Source of the DNA: a virus
Taxonomy: Duplodnaviria > Heunggongvirae > Uroviricota > Caudoviricetes
IMG/VR virus record: IMGVR_UViG_2540341091_000003
Location: 1-43,247 of that record
Length of the DNA stretch: 43,247 nt
Strand: one strand, 5' to 3'
The translations under genes were made by a program, and so were the position numbers. Positions 1,369 through 43,247 of this stretch are shown piece by piece; position 1 is the first letter of the stretch, and each line of letters begins with the position of its first letter. Under the pieces are notes generated by a model. That model saw only the letters and a list, made by a program, of their open reading frames with translations. It had not been told where the DNA came from and made no database searches.

Positions 1369-1444
1369 GCCGATATAGCTCAGTTGGTAGAGCAGCGCAT
1401 TCGTAATGCGAAGGTCGTAGGTTCGACTCCTATTATCGGCACCA
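1369..1444 (+). tRNA. thrW: tRNA-Thr (anticodon CGU)
   Basis: 76-nt sequence GCCGATATAGCTCAGTTGGTAGAGCAGCGCATTCGTAATGCGAAGGTCGTAGGTTCGACTCCTATTATCGGCACCA with canonical D and T arms, a CGT anticodon in the anticodon loop and a 3' CCA; sits downstream of proA as thrW does in E. coli. Confidence 0.93.
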
Positions 1445-1458
1445 TTTAAATCAATAAG

Positions 1459-2622
1459 TTACACATCATTAGTACCTTCCTTATTTTTTGACTGGGACAA
1501 ATTTGGGACCGATGGGTTCAGAATCGAGTCTATTTGCCGTGCGTGTTCGGTAAGGTGATTAGGCGCGAGGTGAGCATATCGACGAACCATTTCGATAGAC
1601 TCCCAGCCACCCATTTCCTGTAACACTGACAACGGGACTCCGGCTTGAACCAGCCAACTTGCCCAGGTGTGTCTCAAGTCGTGAAATCTGAAATCATCAA
1701 TACCAGCTCGTCTCAGCGCCGCTTTCCAGGCTGTGTTTGCGTCATACCGCATCTTCCTTACTGTTGGCGCTTTCGTTCCGTCTGGTTTGGTACAGCTTTC
1801 CTTGTACACAAATACCCAACGGTGATGATTCCCGATTTGTTTTTTCAAAACGCGACATGCAGTATCATTCAGCGCAACGCCGATTGCGCGGTTTGATTTA
1901 CTCTCTTCCGGGTTTATCCATGCCACCCGGCGCTGCATATCTATTTGTTGCCATTCAAGGTTGATGATGTTCGAGCGTCTTAAACCTGTTGCCAGTGCAA
2001 ATTCAACAACAGACTTTAATGGCTCCGGACATTCATCAATCAGCCTTTGTGCTTCATGGGGCTCCAGCCAGCGGATCCGTTTATTCTTTGGTTGAGGCAC
2101 TTTAATAATTGGTGCCTTATCCAGCATTTTCCATTCACGCTCTGCGGCTCTTAGTAGGGCCTTTATAAATGAAAGATGCGTAGCCTTCGTTGCAACGGAC
2201 GCTGGTTTTGGCGTGTATTCTGGAACAGGTTTCCCTTTTTTTCTGCATGCTTCTGCCCTGAGTTTCCAGTTTTCCTCATGACGCCGGTTCGTCATTTTCT
2301 GCATTGCTGAATAAATTTTTGATTCAGTAATGTCTCTTAGTTGCATTCCTGCGAAATGTTGAAGCCAGAATCCGATCCGGCTTTTGTCATCGTCCAGTGA
2401 TTTTTTATGTGCTTTCTCTTCAAGCCACCTGACACACGCTTCCTCGAACGTTATATCAGGTATTTCACCAAGTTTGCTGACCCGCCATGCTTCAGCCTTT
2501 AGCTTGTCATGGAGTTCTGTCGCCTGCCTTTTGTCCTTTGTTCCAAGAGACTGTTTAAATCTTTTACCGTTCGGCAATGTGAAACTGGCGTACCATATTT
2601 CACCTCTGCGGAAGAGTGACAT
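1459..2622 (-). CDS. Tyrosine-type site-specific integrase
   Basis: 387-aa ORF adjacent to the tRNA; C-terminal catalytic region ...[41 protein letters not shown]... (R, H-x-x-R and Y of tyrosine recombinases). Confidence 0.93.
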
Positions 2623-6740: not shown

Positions 6741-6750
6741 AAGAGAGGTC

Positions 6751-7377: not shown

Positions 7378-7394
7378 AGGAGCACCATTTCTTG

Positions 7395-7470: not shown

Positions 7471-7474
7471 GCGT

Positions 7475-7675
7475 ATGACAACTGACGATATCGAAAGCTA
7501 CTTCGGCAGTATTGAGAAAGTTGCTGCTTTTTTCGGCATAACAACTGAAGCCGTTTATCAGTGGCGAAACCGTCCGGGCCAGTTAATTCCAAAAGGACGT
7601 GCAGCAGAAGCTGCATATAGAACTTGCGGACGGTTGCCATTTAAACCTGAGCTTTATGAAAAATCTAATGGATAA
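7475..7675 (+). CDS. Cro-like HTH regulator
   Basis: 66-aa ORF divergent from cI; ...FGITTEAVYQWRNRPGQLIP... HTH. Confidence 0.8.
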   Translation: MTTDDIESYFGSIEKVAAFFGITTEAVYQWRNRPGQLIPKGRAAEAAYRTCGRLPFKPELYEKSNG

Positions 7676-8264
7676 ATCGATTAACAGAAACCACAGAACG
7701 ATGAGGCTAACCGTGGGTAAGCATCACTGGAAAGTAGAAAAACAGCCTGAGTGGTACGTGAAAGCTGTCAGAAAAACTATCGCAGCGTTGCCGGGTGGTT
7801 ACGCTGAAGCAGCTGACTGGCTGGATGTAACAGAAAACGCATTATTTAACCGCCTTCGTGCCGATGGCGATCAGATTTTCCCGCTGGGATGGGCAATGAT
7901 TTTGCAACGTGCTGGTGGAACTCACTTCATTGCTGACGCTGTGGCGCAGTCTGCAAATGGCGTCTTTGTGTCTCTTCCTGACGTCGAGGATGTGGACAAC
8001 GCCGATATTAACCAGCGCCTGCTGGAAGTCATTGAACAGATTGGCAGTTATTCCAGACAGATTCGTTCGGCAATCGAAGACGGTGTGGTGGAACCGCATG
8101 AGAAGACAGCAATTAACGACGAGCTGTATCTCTCAATTTCGAAGCTGCAGGAGCATGCAGCACTGGTCTACAAAATCTTTTGCATTTCAGAAAGTAATGA
8201 CGCCCGCGAGTGTGCAGCTCCGGGCGCCGTGGCGTGTCGTGACTGTGGAGAAACTAACGCATGA
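7656..8264 (+). CDS. CII-like / early regulatory protein (start uncertain: 7656 or 7668)
   Basis: ORF directly after cro in the cII position; overlaps the cro stop; no motif assigned with certainty. Confidence 0.5.
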
Positions 8265-8619
8265 ACAGTTTAACAACACACTACCGTCGCTCGCAACTGA
8301 TTGCGCTTCCTGTACCGGGTGGAAAAGCGAAGGTGGAGTATTGCTATGCAGTTAATGTACCAGGTGACAGGGAAATTGTAACCCACAGCTTTGCTGAGTG
8401 GGCTGTGGGTGATTTCAACCGGCAGAAGGAGACAGTCCTTTGCGACAAGTTAACCGCTGGTTCAAAGATCACTACGGAGTGCCCGTCAGAGTCATTCGTT
8501 GGGAGCCGGAAACACAACGAGTTATCTACCTCCGCGAAGGCTATGAGCATGAGTGCTTCAGCCCGCTCGAACAGTTTCGTCGTAAATTCAGGGAAATAGA
8601 GGTCGGTCATGAGCACTAA
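8261..8619 (+). pseudogene. Hypothetical early gene apparently interrupted by a frameshift (N-terminal part in the 8261 frame, C-terminal part in the frame ending 8617-8619)
   Basis: The frame starting at 8261 degenerates into low-complexity sequence after ~aa 65, while a second frame open from 8413 to 8619 reads protein-like (...[54 protein letters not shown]) and ends exactly where the next gene starts. Confidence 0.4.
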
Positions 8620-9550
8620 ATTAACCGGCTATGTATGGGATGGTTGCGCTGCATCAGGCATGAAATTATCCAGCGTGGCAATTATGGCCCGCCTGGCTGA
8701 TTTCAGTAATGACGAAGGTGTGTGCTGGCCATCAATTGAAACCATTGCCCGCCAGATTGGCGCGGGGATGAGTACCGTCAGAACGGCTATCGCACGGCTG
8801 GAAGCAGAAGGCTGGTTAACGCGTAAGGCGCGTCGCCAGGGTAACCGCAATGCGTCGAATGTTTATCAGCTTAACGTTGCGAAGCTTCAGGCAGCGGCAT
8901 TTTCTCAACTGTCAGATTCTGACCCGTCAAAATCTGACGCATCAAAATCTGACCCGTCAAAATTTGATGCGTCGAAATCTGGCAAAAAAGCGGGTTTTCA
9001 CCCGTCAGAATCTGGCGGGGATCCGTCAGTAAAATCAAAACATGATCCGTCAGATAAAAAACCTTCTCGTCCGGATGCTTCGCAACCGGACACGCAGACG
9101 GCTGAACAGTATTTTTTAACTCGCCATCCTGATGCGGTTGTATTCAGCCCTAAAAAGCGCCAGTGGGGGACGCAGGATGATTTGACCTGCGCACAGTGGC
9201 TCTGGAAAAAAATCATCGCCCTGTACGAGCAGGCCGCCGAATGTGACGGCGAGGTGGTTCGTCCCAAAGAACCGAACTGGACAGCCTGGGCAAACGAAAT
9301 TCGCCTGATGTGTGTGCAGGATGGTCGTACTCACAAACAAATCTGCGAGATGTACAGCCGCGTCAGCCGCGATCCGTTCTGGTGCCGTAACGTGCTCAGC
9401 CCGTCGAAGCTGCGGGAAAAATGGGATGAGCTTTCCCTGCGCTTATCGCCGTCCATCAGCACATACACAGAAAAACGCGAAGACCCGTATTTCAAATCCA
9501 GTTACGACAACGTGGACTACAGCCAGATCCCGGCAGGATTCAGGGGGTGA
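8609..9550 (+). CDS. Replication initiation protein (lambda O-like, N-terminal winged-helix) carrying the origin iterons
   Basis: N-terminal ...WPSIETIARQIGAGMSTVRTAIARLEAEGWL... HTH; internal low-complexity linker SDSDPSKSDASKSDPSKFDASKSGKK is encoded by tandem DNA repeats, as in lambda O/ori. Confidence 0.75.
   Translation: MSTKLTGYVWDGCAASGMKLSSVAIMARLADFSNDEGVCWPSIETIARQIGAGMSTVRTAIARLEAEGWLTRKARRQGNRNASNVYQLNVAKLQAAAFSQLSDSDPSKSDASKSDPSKFDASKSGKKAGFHPSESGGDPSVKSKHDPSDKKPSRPDASQPDTQTAEQYFLTRHPDAVVFSPKKRQWGTQDDLTCAQWLWKKIIALYEQAAECDGEVVRPKEPNWTAWANEIRLMCVQDGRTHKQICEMYSRVSRDPFWCRNVLSPSKLREKWDELSLRLSPSISTYTEKREDPYFKSSYDNVDYSQIPAGFRG
8911..9070 (+). repeat. Iteron array (putative phage replication origin) inside the initiator gene
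   Basis: Direct repeats of ~15 bp (ATCTGACCCGTCAAAA at 8916-8933 and 8946-8963, then degenerate copies containing CCGTCAG) followed by an A-rich stretch. Confidence 0.6.
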
Positions 9551-10041
9551 GCATGAGTCTTTTGAATGAAGTTCAGAAATTCATTGAAGCCCATCCGGGC
9601 TGTACTTCCGGAGACATTGCGGATGCTTTTGCAGGTTACTCACGGCAGCGCGTTCTGCAGTCAGCAAGCAAGTTACGTCAGAGTGGGCGTGTGGCTCACC
9701 GTTGTGAAGGGGATACACGCAGACATTTCCCGCGCCTGACTGAGAGAGCGCAGGAGCCGGAACCACAACCAGTTCGTGAAACCAGACCTGTGCGCAATTT
9801 CTATGTCGGCACTAACGATCCACGGGTGATTTTGTGCCTGACCCGCCAGGCTGAAGAACTGGAGTCCAGGGGCCTATACCGTCGTGCTGCAACGGTGTGG
9901 ATGGCGGCATTCCGTGAAAGCCACTCCCAGCCAGAACGAAACAATTTTCTGGCGCGTCGTGAGCAGTGCTTACAGAAAAGCAGCAAGCGCGCTGCATCGG
10001 GTGAAGAGTGGTATCTGTCAGGGAATTACGTGGGGGCTTAA
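9547..10041 (+). CDS. PerC-family-like transcriptional regulator
   Basis: C-terminal half ...LTRQAEELESRGLYRRAATVWMAAFRESHSQPERNNFLARREQCLQ... resembles the PerC/Pch motif as I remember it; unverified. Confidence 0.45.
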   Translation: MSMSLLNEVQKFIEAHPGCTSGDIADAFAGYSRQRVLQSASKLRQSGRVAHRCEGDTRRHFPRLTERAQEPEPQPVRETRPVRNFYVGTNDPRVILCLTRQAEELESRGLYRRAATVWMAAFRESHSQPERNNFLARREQCLQKSSKRAASGEEWYLSGNYVGA

Positions 10042-13231: not shown

Positions 13232-13612
13232 TTGTGGAGAAAGTTGATGCGTGATATTCAAATGGTTCTGGATCGTTGGGGAGCATGGGCGGCGAGTGAT
13301 AGTTCAGGAGTAGACTATTCTCCTATAGCTGCTGGGTTTAAAGGGCTTCTTCCCTACACAAGCAAAACACGTCAGGCTTGTTCAGATAGTGATGCATTAA
13401 TTATTGAAGGTTGTCTTGCTCGTCTAAAGCAAAAAAAGCCAGATGAGCACTCGCTGCTTGTGGCACATTATTTATACAGAATATCCAAGCGTAAGATTGC
13501 AAAGGTGCGTGGAAAGGATGAAAAATTGGTACGCATAGAAATACAACTAGCCGAAGGATTTATTGATGGTTGCCTTTCAATGTTGGATGTTAACCTTGAA
13601 ATGGACGCTTAG
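13232..13612 (+). CDS. Late-gene antiterminator Q-like protein
   Basis: 126-aa protein at the end of the early-right operon, immediately upstream of the lysis/late region; family call by position and general resemblance only. Confidence 0.5.
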   Translation: MWRKLMRDIQMVLDRWGAWAASDSSGVDYSPIAAGFKGLLPYTSKTRQACSDSDALIIEGCLARLKQKKPDEHSLLVAHYLYRISKRKIAKVRGKDEKLVRIEIQLAEGFIDGCLSMLDVNLEMDA

Positions 13613-14118: not shown

Positions 14119-15060
14119 TTAGTCTCTGCTAGCGAGCTCATACTGTGCAAGATAGTTCGCGTTATCAATTTTAGCAGATATCATCGCCGTTCTGATATCA
14201 GAATCGGATGGATAACCGCTTTTGACAATGATTGTCTTTGTACTGACCAATACTTGGTCAAGTAGACTTTTGGGCGTTCTATTGGATGGCTCGGTTACAT
14301 CAATTTTTTTAATTTTTAGACCTCCAGAACCTTTTGGAAAAAGTTCAAGTAGTTCCTTAATAGCATCGGTGACAGAAGTTTTTAGATAGTTAAAACCTTG
14401 TTTTTTCGGGCGAATCCGACCTCGCATATTTAATCTTAGATGCGACCCGCCCATACCAACAACCATGTCAATAATTTCATTAGCTAAAGGGTTTTTAATC
14501 TTATAATTAGCTTTGTTAAAGTTTCTTGGAGCAGCAACTATAAGATCGAAACTACGTAGGATATTTCCGTCCTCAAGCAGTTCCTTCATGCTCTCTTGTT
14601 TCCAAATGGCTTCAAAAGTCACGCTTTTTAAATCAGTTTTGTTATACAAAATGAATGCCAGATCATTTACTTTGGGCCCTATATGGTTGAGGGTCATAGC
14701 TAATAAATCCGTTTCGTAGTAATAGATAAAATATGTTCTTTCAACTACAGAATCTTTATCATTTAAAGGAATTGTTCTCTCACTACCTGTAGCATCCTCG
14801 ATGAACGGTAGTAGGCATTCCCTTCTCCACGATACGTAACCAAAGTAACATTGCAGTGTGGTATCTTTTTGAAGAATAACTAACTTTAACCCTCGATTTG
14901 GGGTGTCTGTTGTGTAAGTTATTGGAAAAGTTACAGTATCTGCTGTGGTCATTTGCTCAAAGGCTAGTTTTGCAGCAGATGTGCCATCTTTTTTGCTTCC
15001 ATTACCAGTGAAAAAACCAACTCTCACTCGCCTAGTTTTATTCTTATTTTCTGTACTCAT
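14119..15060 (-). CDS. Hypothetical soluble protein, 313 aa, no recognisable family
   Basis: Long uninterrupted ORF on the strand opposite to all flanking phage genes; low GC; basic C-terminal half; no Walker A or nuclease motif found by eye. Confidence 0.75.
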   Translation of the reverse strand: MSTENKNKTRRVRVGFFTGNGSKKDGTSAAKLAFEQMTTADTVTFPITYTTDTPNRGLKLVILQKDTTLQCYFGYVSWRRECLLPFIEDATGSERTIPLNDKDSVVERTYFIYYYETDLLAMTLNHIGPKVNDLAFILYNKTDLKSVTFEAIWKQESMKELLEDGNILRSFDLIVAAPRNFNKANYKIKNPLANEIIDMVVGMGGSHLRLNMRGRIRPKKQGFNYLKTSVTDAIKELLELFPKGSGGLKIKKIDVTEPSNRTPKSLLDQVLVSTKTIIVKSGYPSDSDIRTAMISAKIDNANYLAQYELASRD

Positions 15061-23484: not shown

Positions 23485-24690
23485 ATGGCGGTTGATATTA
23501 AAGATGTGGAACAGGTCGCGCAGGAGCTGCAGCAGAAGTTTGACGACTTCAAGGCAAAGAACGACAAGCGCGTGGATGCGATTGAGCAGGAAAAAGGCAA
23601 ACTTGCCGGGCAGGTGGAAACCCTGAACGGGAAACTCAGCGAGCTGGAAAATCTCAAAAGCGACCTTGAAAAAGAGCTGCTTGAGCTGAAACGTCCGGCA
23701 GGTGGTGTGCAAAATAAACTGGCCACTGAGCATAAAGAAGCGTTTGTGGGCTTTCTGCGTAAAGGCCGTGAAGACGGTCTGCGCGATCTGGAGCGCAAGG
23801 CATTACAGGTGGGCACCGATGAAGACGGTGGCTATGCCGTGCCGGAAGCACTGGATCGCAACATTCTCACCCTGCTGAAAGATGAAGTGGTGATGCGCCA
23901 GGAAGCCACGGTGATCACTGTTGGCGGTTCCGACTACAAAAAACTGGTGAATCTGGGCGGCACGGCTTCCGGATGGGTGGGCGAGACTGACGCGCGCTCC
24001 CAGACTGCCACCTCAAAACTGGGGCTGATTGAACCTTTCATGGGGGAAATCTACGGTAACCCGCAGGCCACTCAGAAAATGCTGGATGATGCCTTCTTCA
24101 ACGTGGAGGCCTGGATCAACAGCGAGCTGGCGACCGAATTTGCTGAACAGGAAGAAATTGCCTTTACCACCGGTGATGGCACCAAGAAGCCAAAAGGGTT
24201 CCTGGCGTATGAATCCACCGATGAAACCGATAAGGTTCGTGCGTTCGGTAAACTTCAGCATATTGTATCCGGTGAAGCGACGACGGTGACCGCAGACGCC
24301 ATTATCAAACTGATTTACACGCTGCGTAAGGCACACCGCACTGGCGCGAAGTTCATGATGAACAACAACAGCCTGTTTGCCATCCGTCTGTTGAAAGACA
24401 CCGAGGGTAACTATCTGTGGCGTCCGGGGCTGGAGCTGGGGCAACCGTCCTCTCTGGCGGGTTACGGTATCGCTGAAAACGAACAGATGCCGGATATCGC
24501 CGCTGATGCGAAAGCTATTGCATTTGGTAACTTCAAGCGGGGTTACACCATCGTTGACCGTATCGGTACCCGCATTCTGCGTGATCCGTACACCAATAAA
24601 CCATTTGTCGGTTTTTATACCACCAAGCGCACCGGCGGCATGCTGGTCGATTCGCAGGCCATCAAACTGCTGAAGATTGCAGCGGCGTAA
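23485..24690 (+). CDS. Major capsid protein (HK97 fold)
   Basis: 401 aa with an N-terminal coiled-coil delta-like domain (LQQKFDDFKAKNDKRVDAIEQEKGKLAGQVETLNGKLSELENLKSDLEKELLELKRP), after the protease. Confidence 0.9.
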   Translation: MAVDIKDVEQVAQELQQKFDDFKAKNDKRVDAIEQEKGKLAGQVETLNGKLSELENLKSDLEKELLELKRPAGGVQNKLATEHKEAFVGFLRKGREDGLRDLERKALQVGTDEDGGYAVPEALDRNILTLLKDEVVMRQEATVITVGGSDYKKLVNLGGTASGWVGETDARSQTATSKLGLIEPFMGEIYGNPQATQKMLDDAFFNVEAWINSELATEFAEQEEIAFTTGDGTKKPKGFLAYESTDETDKVRAFGKLQHIVSGEATTVTADAIIKLIYTLRKAHRTGAKFMMNNNSLFAIRLLKDTEGNYLWRPGLELGQPSSLAGYGIAENEQMPDIAADAKAIAFGNFKRGYTIVDRIGTRILRDPYTNKPFVGFYTTKRTGGMLVDSQAIKLLKIAAA

Positions 24691-26890: not shown

Positions 26891-28370
26891 CACCATTCCG
26901 TCGAATACGCTGGTTCCGCTGTTTTATGCGGAAATGGATAACCAGGCGGCGAATACTGCACAGGACAGCGGAGCATCGCTGCTGATTGGTCATGCCAATA
27001 ACGGTGCAGAGATTGTTGCCAACAGTCTGGTGCTGATGCCGTCGGCAGACTATGCACGCCAGATTTGTGGTGCGGGAAGTCAGTTGGCGCGTATGGTCGA
27101 GGCTTATCGCCAGACCGACCCGTTTGGTGAGCTGTATGTGATTGCCGTTCCGGAAGCCACAGGCGCGGCGGCAACGGTTACGCTGACGGTGACCGGGGAA
27201 GCAACCGAAAGCGGCACGGTGAATGTCTATGTGGGACGTACTCGCGTGCAGGCTCCGGTGACCAACGGCGATAACGTCACGACGATTGCCAGCAGTATCC
27301 AGGATGCCATCAATGCCGTTCCGACTCTGCCGTTTACAGCTTCATCTTCGGCTGGTGTTGTCACGCTGACCGCGCGTCATAAGGGGCTTTGCGGGAATGA
27401 AATTCCTGTCAGCCTCAATTACTACGGCTTTGGTGGGGGCGAAGTGCTGCCTGCGGGCGTACAGATTGCCGTGGCGACGGGGACCGCCGGAACGGGCTCT
27501 CCTGTTCTCACCGGCGCGGTGGCTGCAATGGCGGATGAGCCGTTTGATTATATCGGCCTGCCGTTCAACGACACGGCCTCCGTTAACACACTGGTGACCG
27601 AGATGAACGATACCAGCGGTCGCTGGAGCTATGCGCGTCAGCTGTATGGTCATGTGTATACGGCAAAGATCGGCACGCTGTCAGAACTGGTGACCGCAGG
27701 TGACCAGTTTAACCAGCAGCACATTACCCTGGCGGGGTACGAAAAAGAGACACAGACGCCTGCCGACGAGCTGGCGGCAAGCCGTACCGCCCGCGCAGCG
27801 GTGTTTATCCGCAACGATCCGGCACGTCCCACGCAGACCGGTGAGCTGGTGGGTATGCTGCCTGCGCCGAAGGGGAAACGGTTCACGATGACCGAGCAGC
27901 AGACCCTGCTGTCTCATGGCGTGGCAACGGCGTATGTCGAAAGCGGGGTGCTGCGCATTCAGCGTGATGTCACCACGTACAGGAAAAACGCTTACGGGGT
28001 TGCGGATAACAGCTACCTCGACAGCGAGACGCTGCATACCAGTGCGTATGTACTGCGCAAACTGAAATCCGTCATTACCAGTAAGTACGGGCGTCACAAG
28101 CTTGCCAGCGACGGTACCCGCTTTGGTCCCGGTCAGGCGATTGTCACCCCGGCGGTGATCAAAGGGGAACTGCTGGCAACCTACCGTCAGCTCGAGCGTG
28201 CGGGGATCGTGGAAAACTACGAACTGTTCAAGCAGTACCTGGTTGTGGAGCGTGATGCCAGCGATCCAAATCGCCTGAACACGCTGTTCCCGCCTGACTA
28301 TGTTAACCAGCTGCGTGTCTTTGCCGTGGTTAACCAGTTCCGTCTTCAGTATTCAGAGGAGTCCGCATAA
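26874..28370 (+). CDS. Contractile tail sheath protein (Mu gpL-like)
   Basis: 498 aa followed directly by tube, chaperone and tape-measure genes. Confidence 0.8.
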   Translation: MTISFNTIPSNTLVPLFYAEMDNQAANTAQDSGASLLIGHANNGAEIVANSLVLMPSADYARQICGAGSQLARMVEAYRQTDPFGELYVIAVPEATGAAATVTLTVTGEATESGTVNVYVGRTRVQAPVTNGDNVTTIASSIQDAINAVPTLPFTASSSAGVVTLTARHKGLCGNEIPVSLNYYGFGGGEVLPAGVQIAVATGTAGTGSPVLTGAVAAMADEPFDYIGLPFNDTASVNTLVTEMNDTSGRWSYARQLYGHVYTAKIGTLSELVTAGDQFNQQHITLAGYEKETQTPADELAASRTARAAVFIRNDPARPTQTGELVGMLPAPKGKRFTMTEQQTLLSHGVATAYVESGVLRIQRDVTTYRKNAYGVADNSYLDSETLHTSAYVLRKLKSVITSKYGRHKLASDGTRFGPGQAIVTPAVIKGELLATYRQLERAGIVENYELFKQYLVVERDASDPNRLNTLFPPDYVNQLRVFAVVNQFRLQYSEESA

Positions 28371-36033: not shown

Positions 36034-36795
36034 ATGCATCGTATAGACACGAAAACCGCGCAGAAGGATAAGTTCGGCGCGGGTAAGAACGGTTTTACCC
36101 GTGGTAACCCCCAGACTGGCACGCCTGCCACCGATCTGGATGATGACTACTTTGATATGTTGCAGGAAGAACTCTGCAGCGTGGTGGAGGCATCCGGTGC
36201 CAGCCTGGAGAAGGCGCGGCACGACCAGTTGCTTACCGCGCTTCGTGCGCTGCTGTTAAGCCGCAAGAATCCGTTTGGCGATATCAAATCGGATGGCACG
36301 GTGAAAACAGCTCTCGAAAACCTTGGTTTGGGAGAAGGCTCTGCATTACCGGTTGGTGTGCCTGTTCCGTGGCCTTCAGCCACTCCGCCAACGGGGTGGC
36401 TAAAATGTAACGGAGCAGTATTTTCTTCTGAAAAGTACCCAAATCTGGCAAAGGCTTACCCAACATTAAAATTACCAGATTTACGCGGGGAATTTATTCG
36501 TGGCTGGGATGATGGGCGCGGGATTGACTCTGGTCGTAACTTATTATCTGCACAGAATGATGCAATTCAGAATATTGTTGGTTCTTTTGGGCGTACCCAG
36601 CTTTTTAGAGACGTACTTAGTTCAGGGCCATTTAGTCAACATGGGAAAGTATTATCTACAGGTCTAAAGGAAGCCGAAATTATTGATGGTTATGGCGCTT
36701 ATAACTGGACATTCGACGCATCTCGCTCAGTTCGCACAGCATCTGAAACCCGCTCCCGTAACATCGCCTTTAATTATATTGTGAGGGCTGCATGA
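36034..36795 (+). CDS. Tail fibre protein: constant N-terminus (to ~36322) fused to a variable C-terminal cassette inside the invertible segment
   Basis: The gene crosses the left recombination site (36311-36336); the C-terminal 155 aa are duplicated, inverted, at 37961..38433. Confidence 0.8.
36311..36336. promoter_or_regulatory. Left crossover site of the invertible segment (gix/hix/pix-like 26-bp site)
   Basis: CTCTCGAAAACCTTGGTTTGGGAGAA; the inner half-site TTCTCCCAAACC (read on the minus strand) is shared with the right site, centre dinucleotide TT versus AA. Confidence 0.65.
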
Positions 36796-37279
36796 TAAGT
36801 AAAGCTGTATTAAATAATGAACTCATCGCCACAAAGGCCGGAGACATTACCGTTTATAATTATGATGGTGAAACACGGGAATATATTTCCACATCAACTG
36901 AATATCTTGCTGTGGGTGTCGGTATCCCGGCATATTCCTGTTTAGATGCCCCAGGCGCATACAAAGCTGGTTATGCAATCTGCCGATCTGCAGATTTTAA
37001 CTCATGGGAATATGTGCCAGACCATCGCGGTGAAATCGTCTTTAGCACCGAAACAGGAGAATCAAAAGAAATCACAGTTCCGGGTGATTACCCTGATAAT
37101 ACAACCACTATCGCCCCGTTAACGCCATACGATAAATGGGATGGTGAGAAATGGGTGACGGATACCGAGGCACAGCATAGCGCCGCAGTAGACGCGGCAG
37201 AAGCACAACGTCAGTCACTGATTGATACTGCAATGGCTTCCATTAGTCTGATTCAACTGAAATTGCAGGCCGGACGGAA
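36323..37279 (+). repeat. Left arm of a 957-bp perfect inverted repeat
   Basis: Every region I spot-checked by reverse-complementing 37477..38433 (both ends and two internal stretches) is identical to the corresponding part of 36323..37279. Confidence 0.85.
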
Positions 37280-37397
37280 ACTGACGCAGGCAGAAACAAC
37301 CCGACTTAACGCCGTGCTGGATTACATTGACGCGGTGACGGTAACAGATACCAGCACCGCGCCGGATATCATCTGGCCTGAACTGCCGGAGGCGTAG
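36792..37397 (+). CDS. Tail fibre assembly chaperone (Tfa)
   Basis: 201-aa ORF immediately after the fibre gene; N-terminal 163 aa are duplicated, inverted, at 37477..37964. Confidence 0.8.
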
Positions 37398-37476
37398 GCC
37401 ATTCAATATCTGGCGCACTGGAAGTATCGACCAGCTCCAGTGCGTCCAGATAATCCAGCCACAAATTATATTGAAC

Positions 37477-37964: not shown

Positions 37965-38433
37965 GCAGCCCTCACAATATAATTAAAGGCGATGTTACGG
38001 GAGCGGGTTTCAGATGCTGTGCGAACTGAGCGAGATGCGTCGAATGTCCAGTTATAAGCGCCATAACCATCAATAATTTCGGCTTCCTTTAGACCTGTAG
38101 ATAATACTTTCCCATGTTGACTAAATGGCCCTGAACTAAGTACGTCTCTAAAAAGCTGGGTACGCCCAAAAGAACCAACAATATTCTGAATTGCATCATT
38201 CTGTGCAGATAATAAGTTACGACCAGAGTCAATCCCGCGCCCATCATCCCAGCCACGAATAAATTCCCCGCGTAAATCTGGTAATTTTAATGTTGGGTAA
38301 GCCTTTGCCAGATTTGGGTACTTTTCAGAAGAAAATACTGCTCCGTTACATTTTAGCCACCCCGTTGGCGGAGTGGCTGAAGGCCACGGAACAGGCACAC
38401 CAACCGGTAATGCAGAGCCTTCTCCCAAACCAA
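37961..38433 (-). other. Silent inverted tail-fibre C-terminal cassette (identical to the expressed one)
   Basis: 155 codons identical to the C-terminus of the 36034..36795 fibre; no independent start; the upstream part of the track ORF crosses the crossover site. Confidence 0.7.
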
Positions 38434-38445
38434 CGTTTATGAAAA
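38420..38445. promoter_or_regulatory. Right crossover site of the invertible segment
   Basis: TTCTCCCAAACCAACGTTTATGAAAA, ~55 bp upstream of the invertase start. Confidence 0.65.
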
Positions 38446-38499
38446 TGCAGAAATAACGAGCAAATGGCATCATTCCTGCTTTTGTCAGGGGGATCTACC

Positions 38500-39054
38500 A
38501 TGCTTATTGGCTATGTACGCGTATCAACAAATGACCAGAACACAGATCTACAACGTAATGCGCTGAACTGTGCAGGATGCGAGCTGATTTTTGAAGACAA
38601 GGTAAGCGGTACAAAGTCCGAAAGGCCGGGACTGAAAAAACTGCTCAGGACATTATCGGCAGGTGACACTCTGGTTGTCTGGAAGCTGGATCGGCTGGGA
38701 CGTAGTATGCGGCATCTGGTCATTCTGGTTGAGGAGTTGCGCGAACGTGGCGTTAATTTTCGCAGCCTGACGGATGCTATTGATACCAGCACACCGATGG
38801 GGCGTTTTTTCTTTCATGTGATGGGTGCCCTGGCTGAAATGGAACGAGAACTGATTGTTGAACGAACAAAAGCTGGACTGGAAGCTGCTCGCGCACAGGG
38901 ACGAATTGGTGGACGTCGTCCCAAACTTACACCAGAACAATGGGCGCAGGCCGGGCGATTAATTGCATCAGGCGTTCCTCGCCAGAAGGTGGCTATTATC
39001 TATGATGTTGGTGTGTCAACTTTGTATAAGAGGTTTCCAGCCAGGGTTATATAA
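38500..39054 (+). CDS. Serine DNA invertase (Pin/Gin/Hin family)
   Basis: MLIGYVRVSTNDQNTDLQRNAL... with catalytic Ser in VRVST, plus a C-terminal HTH; adjacent to the invertible tail-fibre segment. Confidence 0.92.
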   Translation: MLIGYVRVSTNDQNTDLQRNALNCAGCELIFEDKVSGTKSERPGLKKLLRTLSAGDTLVVWKLDRLGRSMRHLVILVEELRERGVNFRSLTDAIDTSTPMGRFFFHVMGALAEMERELIVERTKAGLEAARAQGRIGGRRPKLTPEQWAQAGRLIASGVPRQKVAIIYDVGVSTLYKRFPARVI

Positions 39055-39396
39055 AACCGCAGACATGTCGTATGCAGGAGGTGTCGCGGTTGGCTGGTGA
39101 ACTTTTGATAGTGCGAGTATTGAATGATTTCCAGCCGTTACTGATTTTACGCATTTTTGTATGAGAGGGTTTGCACCTCCTTCCACCGATTCTCCATGAC
39201 TTTACGCCACTGTCTCTAGAACTGCTATGTGCCAACAGCAGACATTCATAGCACACAGTTTTGTTAACAACTAGAAATAAGTTTAGGAATAGTCGCGATA
39301 TATCTATTAAAGATACAATCATTCAAATAAATGAGACATTTTCGGCATGCTGGGAAAAGTAATTAAAAATGGTGAAAGCCAATTGTTTTTTATTAA

Positions 39397-39903
39397 TCAA
39401 CTTTTAAACCATAAGTCATCTCGATAGAGTAGACTAATTTTCGTTGCATCTTTTGATGCTAGAGTCGTACACTCTCCTTTATCAAACTCATCTAGACTCA
39501 CAAATGTAAATTCGTCACCATTTTTTTCTTTCGGAAACACCATAAAGACTACTTCGAAAGTACAATCACTATACACATTTTTTAAGAATTGCTGAAGTGC
39601 TCTATACTTTCCTATTTCACAATCAGTAAGTGTAAAGGAGGTACACCCATCTGTTGAGTGATACTTCGCATCTAAAAGAATATAAGAGGATTCGTCAGCG
39701 TCAATAATGAAATCGGGGCGTTTCCCCCCATATGATTTCAAGTTTGCAGATAAGGTATTTATTCCTTGCTCAACATGTTCAAATTTCCACTTGGATTTTT
39801 CCAGCCATCTACTAGCATATTTCTCACCATCTTGACCAGCCGTTATAGAGTATTGTTTTCTTAATGCGCTGCACATTTCGTCTAAATTTAACATAAATTC
39901 CAT
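39397..39903 (-). CDS. Small AT-rich protein with a PD-(D/E)xK-like nuclease motif (start 39903 or 39894)
   Basis: ...GGKRPDFIIDADESSYILLDAKYH... fits the D...(D/E)xK pattern of restriction-endonuclease-fold nucleases; AAGGA RBS; low GC. Confidence 0.55.
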   Translation of the reverse strand: MEFMLNLDEMCSALRKQYSITAGQDGEKYASRWLEKSKWKFEHVEQGINTLSANLKSYGGKRPDFIIDADESSYILLDAKYHSTDGCTSFTLTDCEIGKYRALQQFLKNVYSDCTFEVVFMVFPKEKNGDEFTFVSLDEFDKGECTTLASKDATKISLLYRDDLWFKS

Positions 39904-40149
39904 GTTCCTTTTTTTTAGTATAATTATTAACATCGGCAGTATTTAATAATTCTTTAAAAATAAATTTTCAGGCTCATACCAATTATATCTTCAAGCATTA
40001 TTATCAAGCATATTCGAGACCTCTGCAATTCGCTCACAGCGGATCTCGCCTAGCGAGCAGGTCTGCTCAGTGCCATAATTAGTCTCATCAGCAGACTATA
40101 GTTGTGCTCAATCGGAGACATGTGGCAAACATGAGGAACATTATGTCCG

Positions 40150-40386
40150 TCAAAGAGTTTTCGTAGCTTAGGCATTTCGATGCTGGCAACGGGTCAGTGT
40201 AACGCTTACTATATCGGTCCACTTTAGTCTTAAGGGTTCAATATGGCGTTGCACCTATTGTCCGCTGACCAAGAATCTTCGGGTGATTCAACTTCTGTTG
40301 GGTCATAAGAAACTGGAAAGCACATTCCGTTATCTGGGCATTGAAGTCGATGATGCGTTAGAGATCTCTGAATCGATTGAAGTCTA
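40150..40386 (+). pseudogene. Remnant of a tyrosine recombinase gene (C-terminal catalytic region only, with frame disruptions)
   Basis: The frame ending at TAA 40384-40386 reads ...LTKNLRVIQLLLGHKKLESTFRYLGIEVDDALEISESIEV, i.e. the LGH...RY region carrying the catalytic Tyr; the upstream reading frame is broken. Confidence 0.5.
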
Positions 40387-40493
40387 AGGTTGTCAGGGCT
40401 GCAACAGCAGCCCTGTGCCAGGAGCAGACGTTAACGACCAAGCATTGGCGGCAATTGAGCTCAGCGCAATTGCCGTTCAAGTGCAACTCCGTT

Positions 40494-43247
40494 CTATTTG
40501 ATTGCTGCATTGATTCGTTTATATCTTTGGGTAAAGGCCTCTTTGCCACCTTCCATCACTCGGCATATCTCATCGCGTATGGAAGGTTCTTGAAGACCCC
40601 CTTGCGCCACAATTCTGGTTTGACCAGACCGAATATCAAGGGCAATGACGTTTTCCGCGTCACCATTCACGACGATGTTAGCGTTGTGCGTGACTACTAA
40701 AACCTGCCGTTTTTGTTTGATCTCACGCAATTGCGTCACGATAAGATCATAGATTAAGTGGTTATCAAGATCATCCTCAGGCTGATCAAGTATAAGAGGC
40801 TCATTGCCATATGAAAGGATAAATGCAAGGAGAGCCGCCGTTTTTTGCCCCGGAGATCCTTGCTCTACGGGTTTGAAACTCTCGCCGTTCTTGAGGCTAT
40901 ATCTGATATCCAGAGAATCGCCTGGAAACCAGCACTGAATTCGATCTATCTGTTCCGGAGTTAGCCCCTGAATGAGGGATACAAAACGTCGATCTTTGCA
41001 GGATTCCACCGCCATAGTATCGTTTTCATGGATTGCAAGTAGCGATGATTTTATTTTCTCAATTTTATCATCCATAGTATTGGATTGGTCTTGCGTTAAA
41101 TAAGCCAGCAAGCCCTCATCCCCGTCAACAACTCCAATGTCGCGGTCAAATCCGCCACCACTGCGGCCGATCAGGTTACGGAATTCTTCCTCAACCGTAA
41201 TCTTGTTTCCAAACGGAATGACATTGATCTGTACATATGAATTGCCGACGAGAGTATCCTTGAGAAAGTCCTCACGAAGTTTGGTTATCAATGCTCGATG
41301 CTCATGGAGTTTGACCAAGTATTCTTCCGCGCTCTTCTGATGCTGCGCAAGAGTTTCTCTCTTTTTGTCGAATCCCTTGAGCTTATCTTCGAAATCTTGT
41401 CGCTGCTTAACCAGAACACCATATGCAGATGGATCACCTGCGTCTGCTGCGCTGAGTTGACCGAGGAGGGCGTTGTATTCATGGCTCGCCGCTGTAATTC
41501 TTTTCGATATTCCCAAGTCTGATCGAGTTTGATTCCATGAGTTCTTCACATCATCAATCCGCTGCGCGATCGAGTTCATCTCTGTCTGAAGCTTCTCAAA
41601 CGTCGCACGGATGTCCTTGATGGTATCGAAGAGTTCTTTGTCATCCGCATTCCCAATGTCGAAATATTGTAAATCCAATTCTGCTGGCAGTAGGCTTCCA
41701 GAAATATCTCGGACCTGTTCGGCGGAATCCTCCCAAGTCGTTACCCAGGAGTCCATAGCCTTACTCTGGTTCTGTCTGAGTTGGTAAGCCTTAAGGACAT
41801 CCGCGTGGCCCGCCTTTTCAAAAACATCGAGTTTGCGTTTGACGTCTTCAAGCTGACCTTTGGTTACCGATTCTTCCTGAAGCCCAGCCTGAACTTCACG
41901 CTCTTGGGCGCGAAGCGAGAGATATTTGGAAACCAGTTCATCCCACTTAAGCTGCCAATCACGATGATTGACCTCCGGGGCATCATCGACAACCTGCAAG
42001 AGTGCTTGGGGATGCTTTGCCAATTCGAATATCTGTTTCTGGCTGTAAATCCTGACAGGAAATCGTTGTGCTATGTCTCCCTCGGAATCACACCAGACTC
42101 CGGGAGCGGTCTCTTCCTCGATGCTGTATATGTCGTCGGTATTAGACCAGGTGATTCGGAAACGGCCACCGTCTTTTCGAAAGCCTACAGTTATTTTCGT
42201 GGAATCTTTTAACAGCCCTTCATCTTGGCGGTCTTTCGAAGTTTGACTGTATTTGGTAAATTCCTTTTCAAGGCTCTTGGGGATTTCTCCCTTTCGTTTA
42301 AGAGCAATCCGCAGGAATTCCAACGAAGTCGATTTCCCAGTGCCTCGTCCACCAATGATAGTGTTGAGCCAGGGGTTCAGTTGACAAGTTAAAGATTGCC
42401 CTCGTCCTAAGTACTTCGCATCATCAACCACGATACTTTCGATGGCAAGTTGTCCATGGATATTTGGGTCACCAGTGAAGTTGTCCGACCGCTTCAGTGA
42501 AAGAGCACCATCAACGAGCGCCAGCCGTAATCCGTCATAAGATGGCTCCGACATTTTTACCCAAGTGAAATGGCTACCCGGGTAGCGTTGATTTCCGGTA
42601 CCGGACGGATGATGGGAATCGGTTCCAAGAATCTCTGCCCAATTCAAATTCTTGCCAATATAGAGCTGCGGTTTTGCTTTAGCAAGGTCCGTTACCTCCA
42701 TAGCAAAAACACATTTGTTGTCAAGCACCTGCTCTAGTGTGTTGCCCGTACAGACCGTAAAAAGTCCGCTAGCCTGATCTACATGAGCAGGTATTGCAAG
42801 TCCTCCTGACCTAGCAATTTCGTCGATCACCTCAACTGCTGAGCATTCAGAGCAGCCGTCGCTCTTTCCTTTGGTGCCGCGATACCTGACCGCACCAAGC
42901 AGTGAGTCGATATCAGAGGTTGTCTTGTCTTCGCCGAAAATGGCCAGAATATGGATATTCCCCTGAACAGTAAGCTCAACACCTGGGAATAAGTAGAGTG
43001 GTCGATAATCTTCATGACTCTCAGATGCCAGTTCCTTGAGTGCCTGCTTGAGCGGATCAATCCAAGCGCCTGAATTATGGTCCGTGACAGCGACACAATC
43101 GATGCCTTGTCGCATGTAGTTGAGCAGCCAATCTTTATGAGTGATCTGCATATACTGGGCCTGATTAGGGCCTTTTCCATAATCGTCCGATGCCGGAGTG
43201 TGATTATGGAAGTCGAATTTCCACCACCGAGAACCAATCCAGTTCAT
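40494..43247 (-). CDS. PHP-domain phosphoesterase fused to an SMC/RecN-like ABC ATPase (917 aa); architecture resembles Ppl-type single-gene antiphage proteins
   Basis: N-terminal PHP motifs (WWKFDFHNHTPAS; VAVTDHN; GVELTV...IHILAIF; AIPAHVD; LGTDSHHP), Walker A GGRGTGKST (~aa 299-307), long coiled-coil-like insert, signature-like QGSPGQKTAALLAFIL, Walker B LILDQPEDDLD and VVTHN H-loop. The window ends exactly at its start codon. Confidence 0.8.
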   Translation of the reverse strand: MNWIGSRWWKFDFHNHTPASDDYGKGPNQAQYMQITHKDWLLNYMRQGIDCVAVTDHNSGAWIDPLKQALKELASESHEDYRPLYLFPGVELTVQGNIHILAIFGEDKTTSDIDSLLGAVRYRGTKGKSDGCSECSAVEVIDEIARSGGLAIPAHVDQASGLFTVCTGNTLEQVLDNKCVFAMEVTDLAKAKPQLYIGKNLNWAEILGTDSHHPSGTGNQRYPGSHFTWVKMSEPSYDGLRLALVDGALSLKRSDNFTGDPNIHGQLAIESIVVDDAKYLGRGQSLTCQLNPWLNTIIGGRGTGKSTSLEFLRIALKRKGEIPKSLEKEFTKYSQTSKDRQDEGLLKDSTKITVGFRKDGGRFRITWSNTDDIYSIEEETAPGVWCDSEGDIAQRFPVRIYSQKQIFELAKHPQALLQVVDDAPEVNHRDWQLKWDELVSKYLSLRAQEREVQAGLQEESVTKGQLEDVKRKLDVFEKAGHADVLKAYQLRQNQSKAMDSWVTTWEDSAEQVRDISGSLLPAELDLQYFDIGNADDKELFDTIKDIRATFEKLQTEMNSIAQRIDDVKNSWNQTRSDLGISKRITAASHEYNALLGQLSAADAGDPSAYGVLVKQRQDFEDKLKGFDKKRETLAQHQKSAEEYLVKLHEHRALITKLREDFLKDTLVGNSYVQINVIPFGNKITVEEEFRNLIGRSGGGFDRDIGVVDGDEGLLAYLTQDQSNTMDDKIEKIKSSLLAIHENDTMAVESCKDRRFVSLIQGLTPEQIDRIQCWFPGDSLDIRYSLKNGESFKPVEQGSPGQKTAALLAFILSYGNEPLILDQPEDDLDNHLIYDLIVTQLREIKQKRQVLVVTHNANIVVNGDAENVIALDIRSGQTRIVAQGGLQEPSIRDEICRVMEGGKEAFTQRYKRINAAIK

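What the first reader, a model, noticed from the sequence alone, without database searches (positions are those of the whole stretch)
39934..40493. Decayed tyrosine-recombinase fragment between the two right-end cargo genes
Seen in sequence: the plus strand ending at 40386 encodes the C-terminal catalytic end of a tyrosine recombinase (...LLLGHKKLESTFRYLGIEVDDALEISESIEV), while upstream reading frames are broken. Inference: a scar of an earlier integration or recombination event, suggesting the PHP-ATPase/nuclease locus arrived as a separate mobile cassette, or that thrW carries tandem elements.
Basis: partly seen in the sequence, partly recalled or inferred. Interest (0 to 1): 0.4.

Follow-up and report, generated by a model that had tools for sequence, protein, structure and literature searches.

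The report
Recombinase remnant inside a gene-cassette array
The finding is the dead last fifth of a small recombinase gene, and it marks a junction in a row of swappable cargo genes bounded by two kinds of short palindromic sites; the same sites flank phage lambda's ea31-ea59 genes, and I could not find them described anywhere.

Summary
The fragment is real. Window 40268-40387 encodes the last 39 codons (38/39 identical) of a widespread 200-aa tyrosine recombinase. Nothing upstream resembles the rest of the gene in any frame, so it is a clean 5' truncation, not frame decay.

It is not a scar of integration at thrW. The prophage has one attL/attR pair, and its excised circular form carries the cargo.

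The remnant sits in an array of cassettes bounded by two related 24-bp palindromic sites:
- T1: GTCCGCT-NN-GTGCCA-NN-AGCGGAC
- T2: GTCCGCT-NN-TCGCTCA-N-AGCGGAC

The window reads T1, 178-aa nuclease-like gene, T2+T1, 175-bp remnant, arm fused to the dead recombinase gene, T1, TrlF/Ppl defence gene. The closing T2 lies just past the window.

In other replicons the intact recombinase gene always lies between a T2 and a T1. Identical cargo occurs in unrelated contexts, and the variable bases either side of the 6-bp cores go with their own flank, which places crossovers inside the cores. Lambda has the same bay around ea31-ea59.

My reading is a decayed cassette-exchange array, integron-like or pdif-like, served by this recombinase. 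That the enzyme acts on these sites is inferred, not shown. Ten literature searches found no description.

The parts
1400..1463 (+). attL of the prophage: the 3' part of tRNA-Thr(CGT) thrW plus 19 bp. It is repeated once as attR about 365 bp beyond the window's right end.
   Evidence: The att core occurs exactly twice in the extended locus L004 (1916-1940 and 43631-43655), and no internal copy exists.
39100..39246 (.). Left flank of the cargo bay, homologous to phage lambda 24206-24352 (b region). The homology ends at site T1a.
   Evidence: 81-85% identity. In about 2900 E. coli genomes the match to this flank ends at window 39245-39249.
39220..39243 (+). T1a site: AACTGCT AT GTGCCA AC AGCAGAC. 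The core is intact and the left arm is degenerate. It is the left boundary of the array.
39397..39933 (-). Cassette 1 cargo: a 165/178-aa protein with a PD...(D/E)xK-like motif (RPDF...LLDAKY). It belongs to phrog_28481 (function unknown).
   Evidence: No Pfam, NCBIfam or PADLOC hit. Found only in this prophage lineage.
40021..40044 (+). T2a site: CTCTGCA AT TCGCTCA C AGCGGAT. It forms the right end of cassette 1.
   Evidence: Together with the linker and T1b it aligns at 90% to a junction in a Buttiauxella metagenome-assembled genome (MAG), L018 11439-11488.
40045..40060 (+). 16-bp linker of the T2+T1 composite junction (CTCGCCTAGCGAGCAG).
   Evidence: (linkers are 15-18 bp in 18 composites).
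40061..40084 (+). T1b site: GTCTGCT CA GTGCCA TA, followed by a disrupted right arm. 12 extra bases precede an AGCAGAC at 40090-40096.
40085..40259 (.). Cassette 2: about 175 bp with no credible ORF. It matches nothing outside this locus and is probably a gutted cassette.
40260..40266 (+). GTCCGCT, the left arm of the T2-type site that precedes every intact copy of the recombinase gene. Here it is joined, one base later, to codon 162.
   Evidence: This 7-mer occurs only 4 times on the + strand of the 43-kb window, and this copy abuts the breakpoint.
40268..40387 (+). Recombinase remnant: codons 162-200 plus the stop codon. It keeps His174 and Tyr183 and lacks Arg51, Lys79, His148 and Arg151. 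It carries V181F in a column that is invariant in all intact relatives.
40394..40415 (+). Hairpin CAGGGCTGC-AACA-GCAGCCCTG, native to the 3' flank of the recombinase gene. Its sequence covaries across the family. It occupies the position of the T1 left arm.
40406..40429 (+). T1c site: (hairpin arm) CT GTGCCA GG AGCAGAC. The recombinase-module homology ends here and the TrlF-cassette homology begins here. The shared 17-mer GTGCCAGGAGCAGACGT spans 40415-40431.
40494..43247 (-). Cassette 3 cargo: TrlF-family / Ppl-like PHP-ATPase, a single-gene anti-phage protein. Its closing T2 site (GTCCGCT GT TCG-TCA T AGCAGAC, with a 1-bp deletion in the core) lies 91-113 bp beyond the window end.
   Evidence: NF045780, 651 bits against a cut-off of 350; PADLOC Ppl, E 2e-157.

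Best explanation
**What it is.** The fragment is the non-functional 3' remnant of a 200-aa, catalytic-domain-only tyrosine recombinase gene. In intact copies this gene always sits inside a cassette junction. A T2-type site lies about 45 bp upstream of its ATG. Downstream of its stop codon come a hairpin and then the core and right arm of a T1 site.

**The sites and cassettes.** T1 and T2 are 24-bp dyad-symmetric sites with the same arms (GTCCGCT / AGCGGAC) but different asymmetric 6-bp cores (GTGCCA and TCGCTC). T2 is roughly the reverse complement of T1 apart from two core positions. A cassette runs from the right half of a T1, through the cargo, to the left half of a T2.

**Proposed mechanism (inferred).** The recombinase binds the arms and exchanges strands within the cores. 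T1xT1 and T2xT2 events would then insert, excise or swap cargo between any replicons that carry such a bay, including lambdoid phages, plasmids and ICEs.

**This window.** The bay between the tail-fibre/pin region and attR holds three cassettes: a PD-(D/E)xK-like gene, a gutted 175-bp cassette, and TrlF/Ppl. The recombinase junction lies between the second and third. A deletion running from one base after the T2 left arm to codon 161 killed the gene. Other decay fits a fossilised array: V181F in the remnant, a disrupted T1b arm and a 1-bp deletion in the terminal T2 core.

**Shown versus inferred.** Shown: the truncation, the sites, their order and orientation, their coincidence with homology breakpoints, and the mapping of crossovers to the cores. 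Inferred: that this recombinase is the enzyme acting on T1 and T2, and that the deletion arose at the arm.
For: **The remnant.** It is 38/39 identical to residues 162-200, with nothing upstream in any frame. V181 is invariant in 10 relatives at 61-89% identity and is F here.

**The sites are not chance.**
- An arm-based scan found 63 sites in 302 kb of recombinase-centred Enterobacterales loci, against 0-3 in shuffles.
- Orientation relative to the recombinase gene is T1 26:2 and T2 27:1.
- The window has four co-oriented sites within 39220-40429, against 0.75 hits per 43 kb in shuffles.

**Independent set.** 80 IMG/VR contigs were fetched on an exact T1 match alone. 58 also carry T2, almost always downstream and co-oriented. 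32 read exactly T1..T2, others alternate with a 42-bp T2-to-T1 spacing, and bays are 0.5-4.2 kb.

**The recombinase gene sits inside a junction.** Upstream homology among copies starts at the T2 left arm/core. Downstream homology stops at the T1 right arm. L098 shows T2@9321, gene 9384-9983, T1@10005.

**Cargo moves with these boundaries.**
- TrlF occurs in the prophage and on two plasmids, with homology bounded by T1 and T2.
- A 984-bp cassette is 99-100% identical between an IncFIB plasmid and prophage contigs, while the flanks are at random-level identity.
- The same Qin-like bay holds three different cargos.
- Lambda and this phage are homologous to the left of T1 and to the right of T2, but carry ea31-ea59 versus this array in between.

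**Crossover mapping.**
- T1 pairs with the same left flank and a different right flank (244 pairs): left dinucleotide identical in 90%, right dinucleotide in 13%.
- T2 pairs with a different left flank and the same right flank (111 pairs): left identical in 16%, right in 99%.

**Sites track the recombinase lineage.** Pseudomonas and other lineages have the same layout with lineage-specific arms and cores, such as GGCCGCT..CGGCCA..AGCGGCC.
Against: - No experiment links this recombinase to T1/T2.
- 78 of 80 phage bays lack the gene in cis, so it would have to act in trans, or many bays are fossils.
- The site definitions were derived from the same kind of data they are then counted in. Only the IMG/VR T2 result and the flank-partition test are semi-independent.
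- The pairs counted are not phylogenetically independent.
- The window's own sites each have one degenerate arm (3-4 mismatches).
- Calling 40260-40266 'the T2 left arm' rests on a 7-mer next to the breakpoint.
- A 10-bp gap between the conserved 7-bp arms is long for a tyrosine-recombinase site unless the arms are really 9 bp with two free positions.
- The literature check covered open-access text only, so the system may be described elsewhere.
Confidence: 0.72

Rival explanations
1. One reading: the fragment is the scar of an integrase-mediated insertion of a separate island, or of tandem elements at thrW, with its own att sites.
For: It is a recombinase remnant lying between cargo genes near the prophage end.
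Against: The thrW att core occurs only twice, at the outer ends, and there are no other long direct repeats in 38400-43800. The excised circular phage CP085522.1 contains the cargo and one att copy. The parent protein is 200 aa with no arm-binding or core-binding N-terminal domain.
Confidence: 0.04
2. T1 and T2 are conserved 'boundary' or linker sequences at which general homologous recombination (RecA or phage Red) shuffles modules. On this view the small recombinase is just another cargo gene.
For: Most bays have no recombinase in cis. About 24 bp of identity could support rare homologous exchange between co-resident phages and plasmids.
Against: - The sites are dyad-symmetric with an asymmetric 6-bp core, which is the anatomy of a tyrosine-recombinase site.
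- Crossovers map between the two variable dinucleotides that flank the core, not across the whole identity.
- The recombinase gene is always embedded between a T2 and a T1, with a fixed orientation relative to arrays.
- Arms and cores change with the recombinase lineage.
Confidence: 0.13
3. The mobile unit is the junction, not the cargo. The recombinase gene with its inverted T2...T1 ends would be an IS-like element, the 66-bp T2-linker-T1 composites would be its miniature derivatives, and they insert between genes.
For: The recombinase module is bounded by inverted half-sites, like terminal inverted repeats. Near-identical junction modules occur between unrelated cargos.
Against: Many bays, including lambda's, have a lone T1 on the left and a lone T2 on the right of the cargo, the opposite order to that within a junction. 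No outer partner sites are present. Identical cargo with T1/T2 boundaries recurs in unrelated backbones.
Confidence: 0.08
4. The recombinase is a Fim-like invertase that flips the segment between T1 and T2 as a phase switch.
For: Its size is about 200 aa, like FimB/FimE. T2 is approximately an inverted T1.
Against: The tyrosine-type DNA invertase models score 24 and 17 bits against cut-offs of 222 and 221. The T1 and T2 cores differ at two of six positions. TrlF and the 984-bp cassette have the same orientation relative to T1 and T2 in every context seen.
Confidence: 0.03

Closest known systems
Integrons (IntI, attI, attC/59-base elements, gene cassettes)
   Same: - A tyrosine recombinase next to arrays of mostly one- or two-gene cassettes.
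- Cassettes are separated by a roughly 66-bp imperfect inverted repeat made of two 'simple sites' (here T2 and T1), each a pair of inverted arms around a spacer.
- The composite can fold as a long imperfect hairpin (z = -5 for one of the three tried, not significant for the other two, including the window's own).
- The right end reads ...GAC-RTT-R, reminiscent of the GTTRRRY core.
- Many arrays lack the recombinase, like CALINs.
- Cargo includes defence genes.
   Different: - The recombinase is 200 aa, with no N-terminal domain and no IntI-specific insertion. It scores far below the integron/XerA model cut-off.
- There is no attI and no Pc promoter arrangement.
- The gene lies inside a junction, not at the head of the array.
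- Cargo lies on either strand.
- Crossovers map to both T1 and T2 cores in what looks like double-stranded-site logic, so a cassette is bounded by two half-sites rather than carrying one attC.
pdif modules (XerC/XerD-dependent modules on Acinetobacter plasmids)
   Same: Discrete cargo modules bounded by short dyad-symmetric recombination sites in opposite orientation. The same module is found in different plasmid backbones. This comparison rests on my own knowledge.
   Different: The site sequence is unrelated to dif (arms GTCCGCT, 6-bp cores GTGCCA and TCGCTC). A dedicated small recombinase gene is embedded in junctions. The system is found in phages, including lambda, as well as on plasmids and ICEs.
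Engineered recombinase-mediated cassette exchange (heterospecific lox or FRT pairs)
   Same: Two sites share arms but have incompatible spacers, one at each end of the cargo. Double crossover then swaps cargo between replicons without leaving a cointegrate. This is the logic I propose, drawn from my own knowledge.
   Different: That system is man-made. Here the arrangement is natural, and the exchange itself has not been demonstrated.
Xer-type tyrosine recombinases (XerD, XerC, XerA, XerH)
   Same: They are the closest solved structures by profile search, matching the catalytic domain at E 1e-6 to 1e-4. The R-K-H-R-H-Y residues align.
   Different: NCBIfam Xer models score 29-54 bits against cut-offs of 220-335. 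This protein has no N-terminal core-binding domain. Its sites are not dif-like.
R64 shufflon (Rci and sfx sites)
   Same: From memory only, not tested: the sfx spacer GTGCCAA resembles the T1 core GTGCCA, and sfx sites have one conserved arm.
   Different: Rci is about 384 aa and inverts segments. The arm sequences differ. I ran no comparison.

Membership tests
Tyrosine recombinase superfamily (Pfam PF00589) | Sequence homology to the catalytic domain | tested here: met
   The intact parent (L002 5518-6117) hits PF00589 at E 7e-18, 65 bits against a cut-off of 27. The window fragment is 38/39 identical to its residues 162-200. On its own the 34-aa ORF gives no Pfam hit.
Tyrosine recombinase superfamily (Pfam PF00589) | Complete catalytic set (Arg-I, Lys, His, Arg-II, His/Trp, Tyr) in one polypeptide | tested here: not met
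   Alignment A5 shows that the parent has R51, K79, H148, R151, H174 and Y183. The window keeps only H174 and Y183 and has V181F. It is a pseudogene fragment, not a functional member.
Phage/island integrase with tRNA att sites (lambda-Int type) | A protein of about 350-400 aa with N-terminal arm-binding and core-binding domains | tested here: not met
   The parent is 200 aa and the Pfam match covers residues 35-184. The prophage's own 387-aa integrase is a different gene, at 1459-2622.
Phage/island integrase with tRNA att sites (lambda-Int type) | Direct att repeats enclosing the element that the integrase moved | tested here: not met
   The thrW att core occurs only at the two outer ends. There are no other long direct repeats around the cargo.
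Integron | IntI-type integrase | tested here: not met
   The NCBIfam model 'site-specific tyrosine recombinase/integron integrase' scores 53.9 bits against a cut-off of 220. The protein is about 120 aa shorter than IntI.
Integron | attC sites between cassettes: imperfect inverted repeats built from two simple sites | tested here: inconclusive
   The architecture matches: T2, a 15-18-bp linker, then T1. One composite folds as a hairpin with z = -5; two others, including the window's own, do not stand out (z -1.2 and -1.55). The consensus is unrelated to RYYYAAC/GTTRRRY apart from a trailing RTT. Single-strand recombination cannot be tested here.
Integron | One attI/Pc platform with co-oriented, promoterless cassettes | tested here: not met
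   Cargo lies on either strand. The recombinase gene sits inside a junction. Bays exist with no recombinase.
pdif / Xer-dependent modules | 28-bp XerC-6-XerD (dif-like) sites | tested here: not met
   The T1 and T2 consensus from 104 and 75 distinct sites has arms GTCCGCT/AGCGGAC. It does not resemble dif as I recall that sequence (own knowledge).
pdif / Xer-dependent modules | Modules bounded by oppositely oriented sites and found in different backbones | tested here: met
Fim-type tyrosine invertases | Family model match, and an invertible segment seen in both orientations | tested here: not met
   The models score 24.4 and 16.7 bits against cut-offs of 222 and 221. The same cargo always has the same orientation relative to T1 and T2.
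TrlF / Ppl anti-phage ATPase (the cargo to the right) | Full-length match above the curated cut-off | tested here: met
   NF045780 scores 651 bits against a cut-off of 350. The Ppl model NF042955 scores 631 bits, below its cut-off of 1000. PADLOC Ppl gives E 2e-157. Defence activity was not tested.

The most novel reading that the evidence does not exclude
T1 and T2 sites, together with the 200-aa recombinase, form a natural recombinase-mediated cassette-exchange system. It would be a second, integron-independent way in which Proteobacteria trade one- and two-gene cargo, much of it anti-phage defence, among lambdoid phages, plasmids and ICEs. The two sites have incompatible cores and define docking bays, one of which is lambda's own b region around ea31-ea59. 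On this reading the system has not been described.
Probability: 0.4. Interest if true: 0.85.

Novelty: new variant of a known kind. Interest (0 to 1): 0.7.

Why it matters
How cargo and defence genes are swapped so precisely at phage and plasmid 'hotspots' is an open mechanistic question. It is usually attributed loosely to homologous or illegitimate recombination.

If the T1/T2 reading is right, there is a concrete, testable mechanism with defined 24-bp sites and a candidate enzyme of only 200 aa.
- It operates across thousands of E. coli genomes.
- It reaches into phage lambda's b region.
- It has relatives throughout Gamma- and Betaproteobacteria.

It would also give two practical things: a simple sequence signature for finding new cargo genes, since 73 distinct cargos turned up in 95 bays, and a compact natural cassette-exchange tool.

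The fragment itself is only a dead gene. Its value is as the pointer to the array.

Tried and rejected
- **Frame-decayed whole gene.** tblastn of the intact protein against 39000-40700 at E up to 1000 found only residues 162-200. Rejected.
- **A 12-nt match (40238-40249) to codons 42-46.** It has no flanking similarity and is expected about 0.01-0.02 times by chance. Left unresolved and not used.
- **Internal att sites or tandem islands at thrW.** None found.
- **An exact empty site for the L002 element** (flanks joined through one T1). No contiguous match in 5426 genomes, but both halves break at the T1.
- **Rfam scan of 38400-43247 at E up to 1.** Nothing.
- **PDB search by single sequence.** Nothing. 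The profile search gave only distant Xer hits.
- **Homologues of the 178-aa protein in phages and plasmids.** None outside this prophage.
- **Terminator scan.** The post-gene hairpin has no T-run and is not called.
- **Literature.** Ten full-text searches used site sequences, protein motifs and descriptive terms. Three papers were read in part. No description of these sites or of this recombinase's role was found. 'TrlF' traces to a Photorhabdus temperature-restriction locus, which is unrelated.
- **Pin/Hin serine invertase next door as the enzyme.** Considered and set aside. It is associated with the inverted tail-fibre segment, and T1/T2 occur widely without it.

Full report
**1. Where the window comes from**

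The window is E. coli proA-thrW followed by a prophage of about 42 kb. tRNA-Thr(CGT) lies at 1369-1444. The last 45 bases of thrW plus 19 more (1400-1463) recur once, about 365 bp beyond the window's right end. This is seen in the extended locus from strain ACN002 (L004 43611-43672). The att core occurs exactly twice there.

The finding lies near the right end. The order is tail-fibre genes, pinE invertase (38464-39054), a 178-aa ORF on the minus strand (39397-39933), the 560-bp gap that was flagged, and then a 917-aa TrlF-family ATPase on the minus strand (40494-43247). Twelve of 5426 complete E. coli genomes carry this exact gap at 99.5% identity or better.

**2. The observation**

Translation of 40268-40384 gives TKNLRVIQLLLGHKKLESTFRYLGIEVDDALEISESIEV. 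This is 38/39 identical to residues 162-200 of a 200-aa 'site-specific integrase' such as WP_024178309.1 (L002 5518-6120). That protein matches Pfam Phage_integrase at E 7e-18.

DNA homology to intact genes runs from 40268 to 40431, covering 120 bp of gene plus 44 bp of its native 3' flank. It starts and stops abruptly. No frame upstream resembles residues 1-161, even at E = 1000. Region 39934-40267 matches nothing else in E. coli, even with an 11-base word size. So this is a clean 5' truncation, not a frame-broken gene.

The family alignment has the usual R51, K79, H148, R151, H174 and Y183. The fragment keeps only the last two. It has Phe in place of Val181, a residue invariant across relatives down to 61% identity. 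PGAP annotates a 34-aa ORF here, which cannot be a working recombinase.

**3. Not a thrW integration scar**

There is one attL/attR pair and no internal att copy. The 41,492-bp circular record CP085522.1, deposited as a plasmid, is this phage excised. The TrlF side is joined to the integrase side through a single att copy. The cargo genes and the fragment are therefore inside the phage genome.

The parent protein is also the wrong kind. It is 200 aa, catalytic domain only, and nearest to XerD/XerC/XerA/XerH by profile search (E 1e-6 to 1e-4). It scores far below every NCBIfam Xer, integron or invertase cut-off.

**4. What the boundaries revealed**

The recombinase homology ends at GTGCCAGGAGCAGACGT (40415-40431). 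The TrlF gene on two unrelated plasmids (L008, L009) begins its homology with the window at the same 17-mer. At the other end of TrlF, homology among the three contexts ends at CCAACGTCCGCT-GTTCGCTCAT-AGCGGAC.

Both boundaries are palindromic sites with the same arms.
- T1 consensus, from 104 distinct copies: GTCCGCT yt GTGCCA rr AGCGGAC rTt.
- T2 consensus, from 75 distinct copies: aAy GTCCGCT yy TCGCTCA n AGCGGAC.

T2 is close to the reverse complement of T1, apart from two core positions.

**5. The sites are real and ordered**

- In 302 kb around 20-odd enterobacterial copies of the recombinase gene, an arm-based scan finds 63 sites against 0-3 in shuffles. All but three point the same way as the gene.
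- T2 is often followed after a 15-18-bp linker by T1. These composites separate single-gene cassettes.
- I fetched 80 IMG/VR phage contigs using an exact T1 pattern only. Of these, 58 also have T2, almost always downstream and co-oriented. 32 read exactly T1..T2, and the others alternate T1, T2, T1, T2.
- 95 bays hold 73 distinct cargo ORFs, on either strand.
- Of seven cargo proteins sampled, two are PADLOC candidate defence proteins. Lambda Ea59/Ea31 score as PtuA-like / PDC-M01, and TrlF scores as Ppl.

**6. The recombinase gene lives inside a junction**

Among copies with unrelated surroundings, upstream homology begins at a T2 left arm and core about 45 bp before the ATG...GTCCGCT TT TCGCTCAT AAGGGACAACCA.... 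Downstream homology ends after a hairpin plus CT GTGCCA GG AGCGGAC. The hairpin sequence covaries across the family.

The same layout recurs in Pseudomonas, Alteromonadales and Betaproteobacteria, with lineage-specific arms and cores. The family is very large, with at least 8000 clusters at 90% identity, all carrying generic names.

**7. Cargo moves, and crossovers map to the cores**

- A 984-bp cassette is 99-100% identical between an IncFIB plasmid, where it sits next to the recombinase gene, and Qin-like prophage contigs. The 300-bp flanks are at random-level identity.
- One Qin-like bay holds three different cargos.
- A two-gene cassette is shared by a Qin-like prophage and an ICE.
- Lambda and this phage are homologous up to T1 (lambda 24206-24352) and again from T2 onward (lambda about 27336-27480, roughly 90%). 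Between these they carry ea31-ea59 versus this array.

The two variable bases on each side of the 6-bp core follow their own flank.
- T1, same left flank and different right flank (244 pairs): the left pair is identical in 90% and the right pair in 13%.
- T2, different left flank and same right flank (111 pairs): the left pair is identical in 16% and the right pair in 99%.

This places exchange within or immediately beside GTGCCA and TCGCTC, as expected for a tyrosine recombinase with a 6-bp overlap region. The pairs are not phylogenetically independent.

**8. Reading the window**

The array reads as follows.

| Position | Feature |
|---|---|
| 39220-39243 | T1a |
| 39397-39933 | cassette 1, a PD-(D/E)xK-like gene (phrog_28481) |
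| 40021-40044 | T2a |
| 40045-40060 | 16-bp linker |
| 40061-40084 | T1b, right arm disrupted |
| 40085-40259 | cassette 2, no ORF |
| 40260-40266 | GTCCGCT arm |
| 40268-40387 | recombinase remnant |
| 40394-40415 | hairpin |
| 40406-40429 | T1c |
| 40494-43247 | cassette 3, TrlF/Ppl |
| 91-113 bp past the window | T2c, with a 1-bp deletion in the core |

After T2c come about 250 bp shared with lambda, and then attR. The T2a-linker-T1b junction is 90% identical to one in a Buttiauxella MAG that has unrelated cargo on both sides.

The simplest history of the fragment is an internal deletion of about 590 bp within a recombinase junction, running from one base after its T2 left arm to codon 161. 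That the breakpoint abuts an arm suggests an aberrant recombinase event, but this is inference.

**9. Mechanism, and how sure**

The truncated pseudogene is near-certain. The T1/T2-bounded cassette architecture is well supported. That the 200-aa protein is the enzyme acting on T1/T2 is inferred from four things: its embedding in junctions, its fixed orientation, the site anatomy, and the way sites track the recombinase lineage. I put that at about two in three.

Two sites with shared arms and incompatible cores, one at each end of the cargo, would let T1xT1 plus T2xT2 events swap cargo between replicons. Single events between neighbouring junctions would excise or insert cassette circles and so build arrays.

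Most bays lack the gene in cis. Its 3' end is present in 14% of complete E. coli genomes and in 238 plasmids, so action in trans is plausible.

**10. Comparison and novelty**

The system works like an integron or a pdif module set, but it fails the membership tests for both (see the table). It also fails for Fim-type invertases.

Ten full-text searches and three partial readings found no description. The library is open-access only, so I treat novelty as probable rather than established.

The fragment alone is ordinary. What it points to is not.

Noticed in passing
L011 (phage lambda J02459) 3328-3350 and 6323-6346, equal to lambda about 24328-24350 and 27322-27345: Lambda's b region has a T1 site (with a 1-bp deletion in the core) and a T2 site that bracket ea31-ea59. 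These two proteins score as PDC-M01B and PtuA-like/PDC-M01A in PADLOC. The flanks outside the two sites are homologous to this prophage, and the cargo between them is not.
   Followed up: yes
L002 5487-5517, and the equivalent positions upstream of every intact recombinase gene (not present in the window): A conserved stem-loop pairs the Shine-Dalgarno GGAG just before the ATG (CTCAAATyTCC...GGAGATTTGAG). In Pseudomonas it reads GTCCTCC...GGAGGAC, so the stem covaries. This may be translational control of the recombinase.
   Followed up: partly
L005 (CP085522.1) 13505-13552: The record deposited as the 41.5-kb plasmid p4D31-5 is this prophage in circular, excised form. It has a single att copy.
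   Followed up: yes
window 36318-37473: The tail-fibre segment next to pinE is in the opposite orientation to that in strain ACN002 (L004 38439-37260). This is as expected for a Pin-invertible host-range segment.
   Followed up: partly
L010 (E. coli O103:H2 PV16-126) 3735-8510: Two IS3-family copies have removed pin, the 178-aa gene, the recombinase remnant and the 3' end of TrlF from the same thrW prophage.
   Followed up: no
window 40238-40249: GTTCAATATGGC is a 12/12 match to codons 42-46 (FNMAL) of the intact recombinase, 17 nt upstream of the breakpoint. It could be chance (expected about 0.01-0.02 times) or a second tiny remnant.
   Followed up: partly
L161 2086-2181 and L098 9384-9983 (IMG/VR contigs): Another array carries only the first 32 codons of the recombinase gene, and another carries an intact copy between a T2 and a T1. 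Decay of the junction gene therefore recurs.
   Followed up: partly
L008 (pKPC2_Vir plasmid) 5361-5957: On this plasmid a small serine recombinase gene ends 18 bp before the T1 site that bounds the TrlF cassette. A type II restriction-modification pair follows the T2 site. The region looks like a defence island built around the same bay.
   Followed up: no
window 14119-15060 (minus-strand ORF): A second block of minus-strand cargo-like genes lies between the antiterminator Q and the lysis genes. In strain ACN002 (L004 14991-16718) it includes a TIGR04255-family protein. My scan found no T1 or T2 sites there.
   Followed up: no
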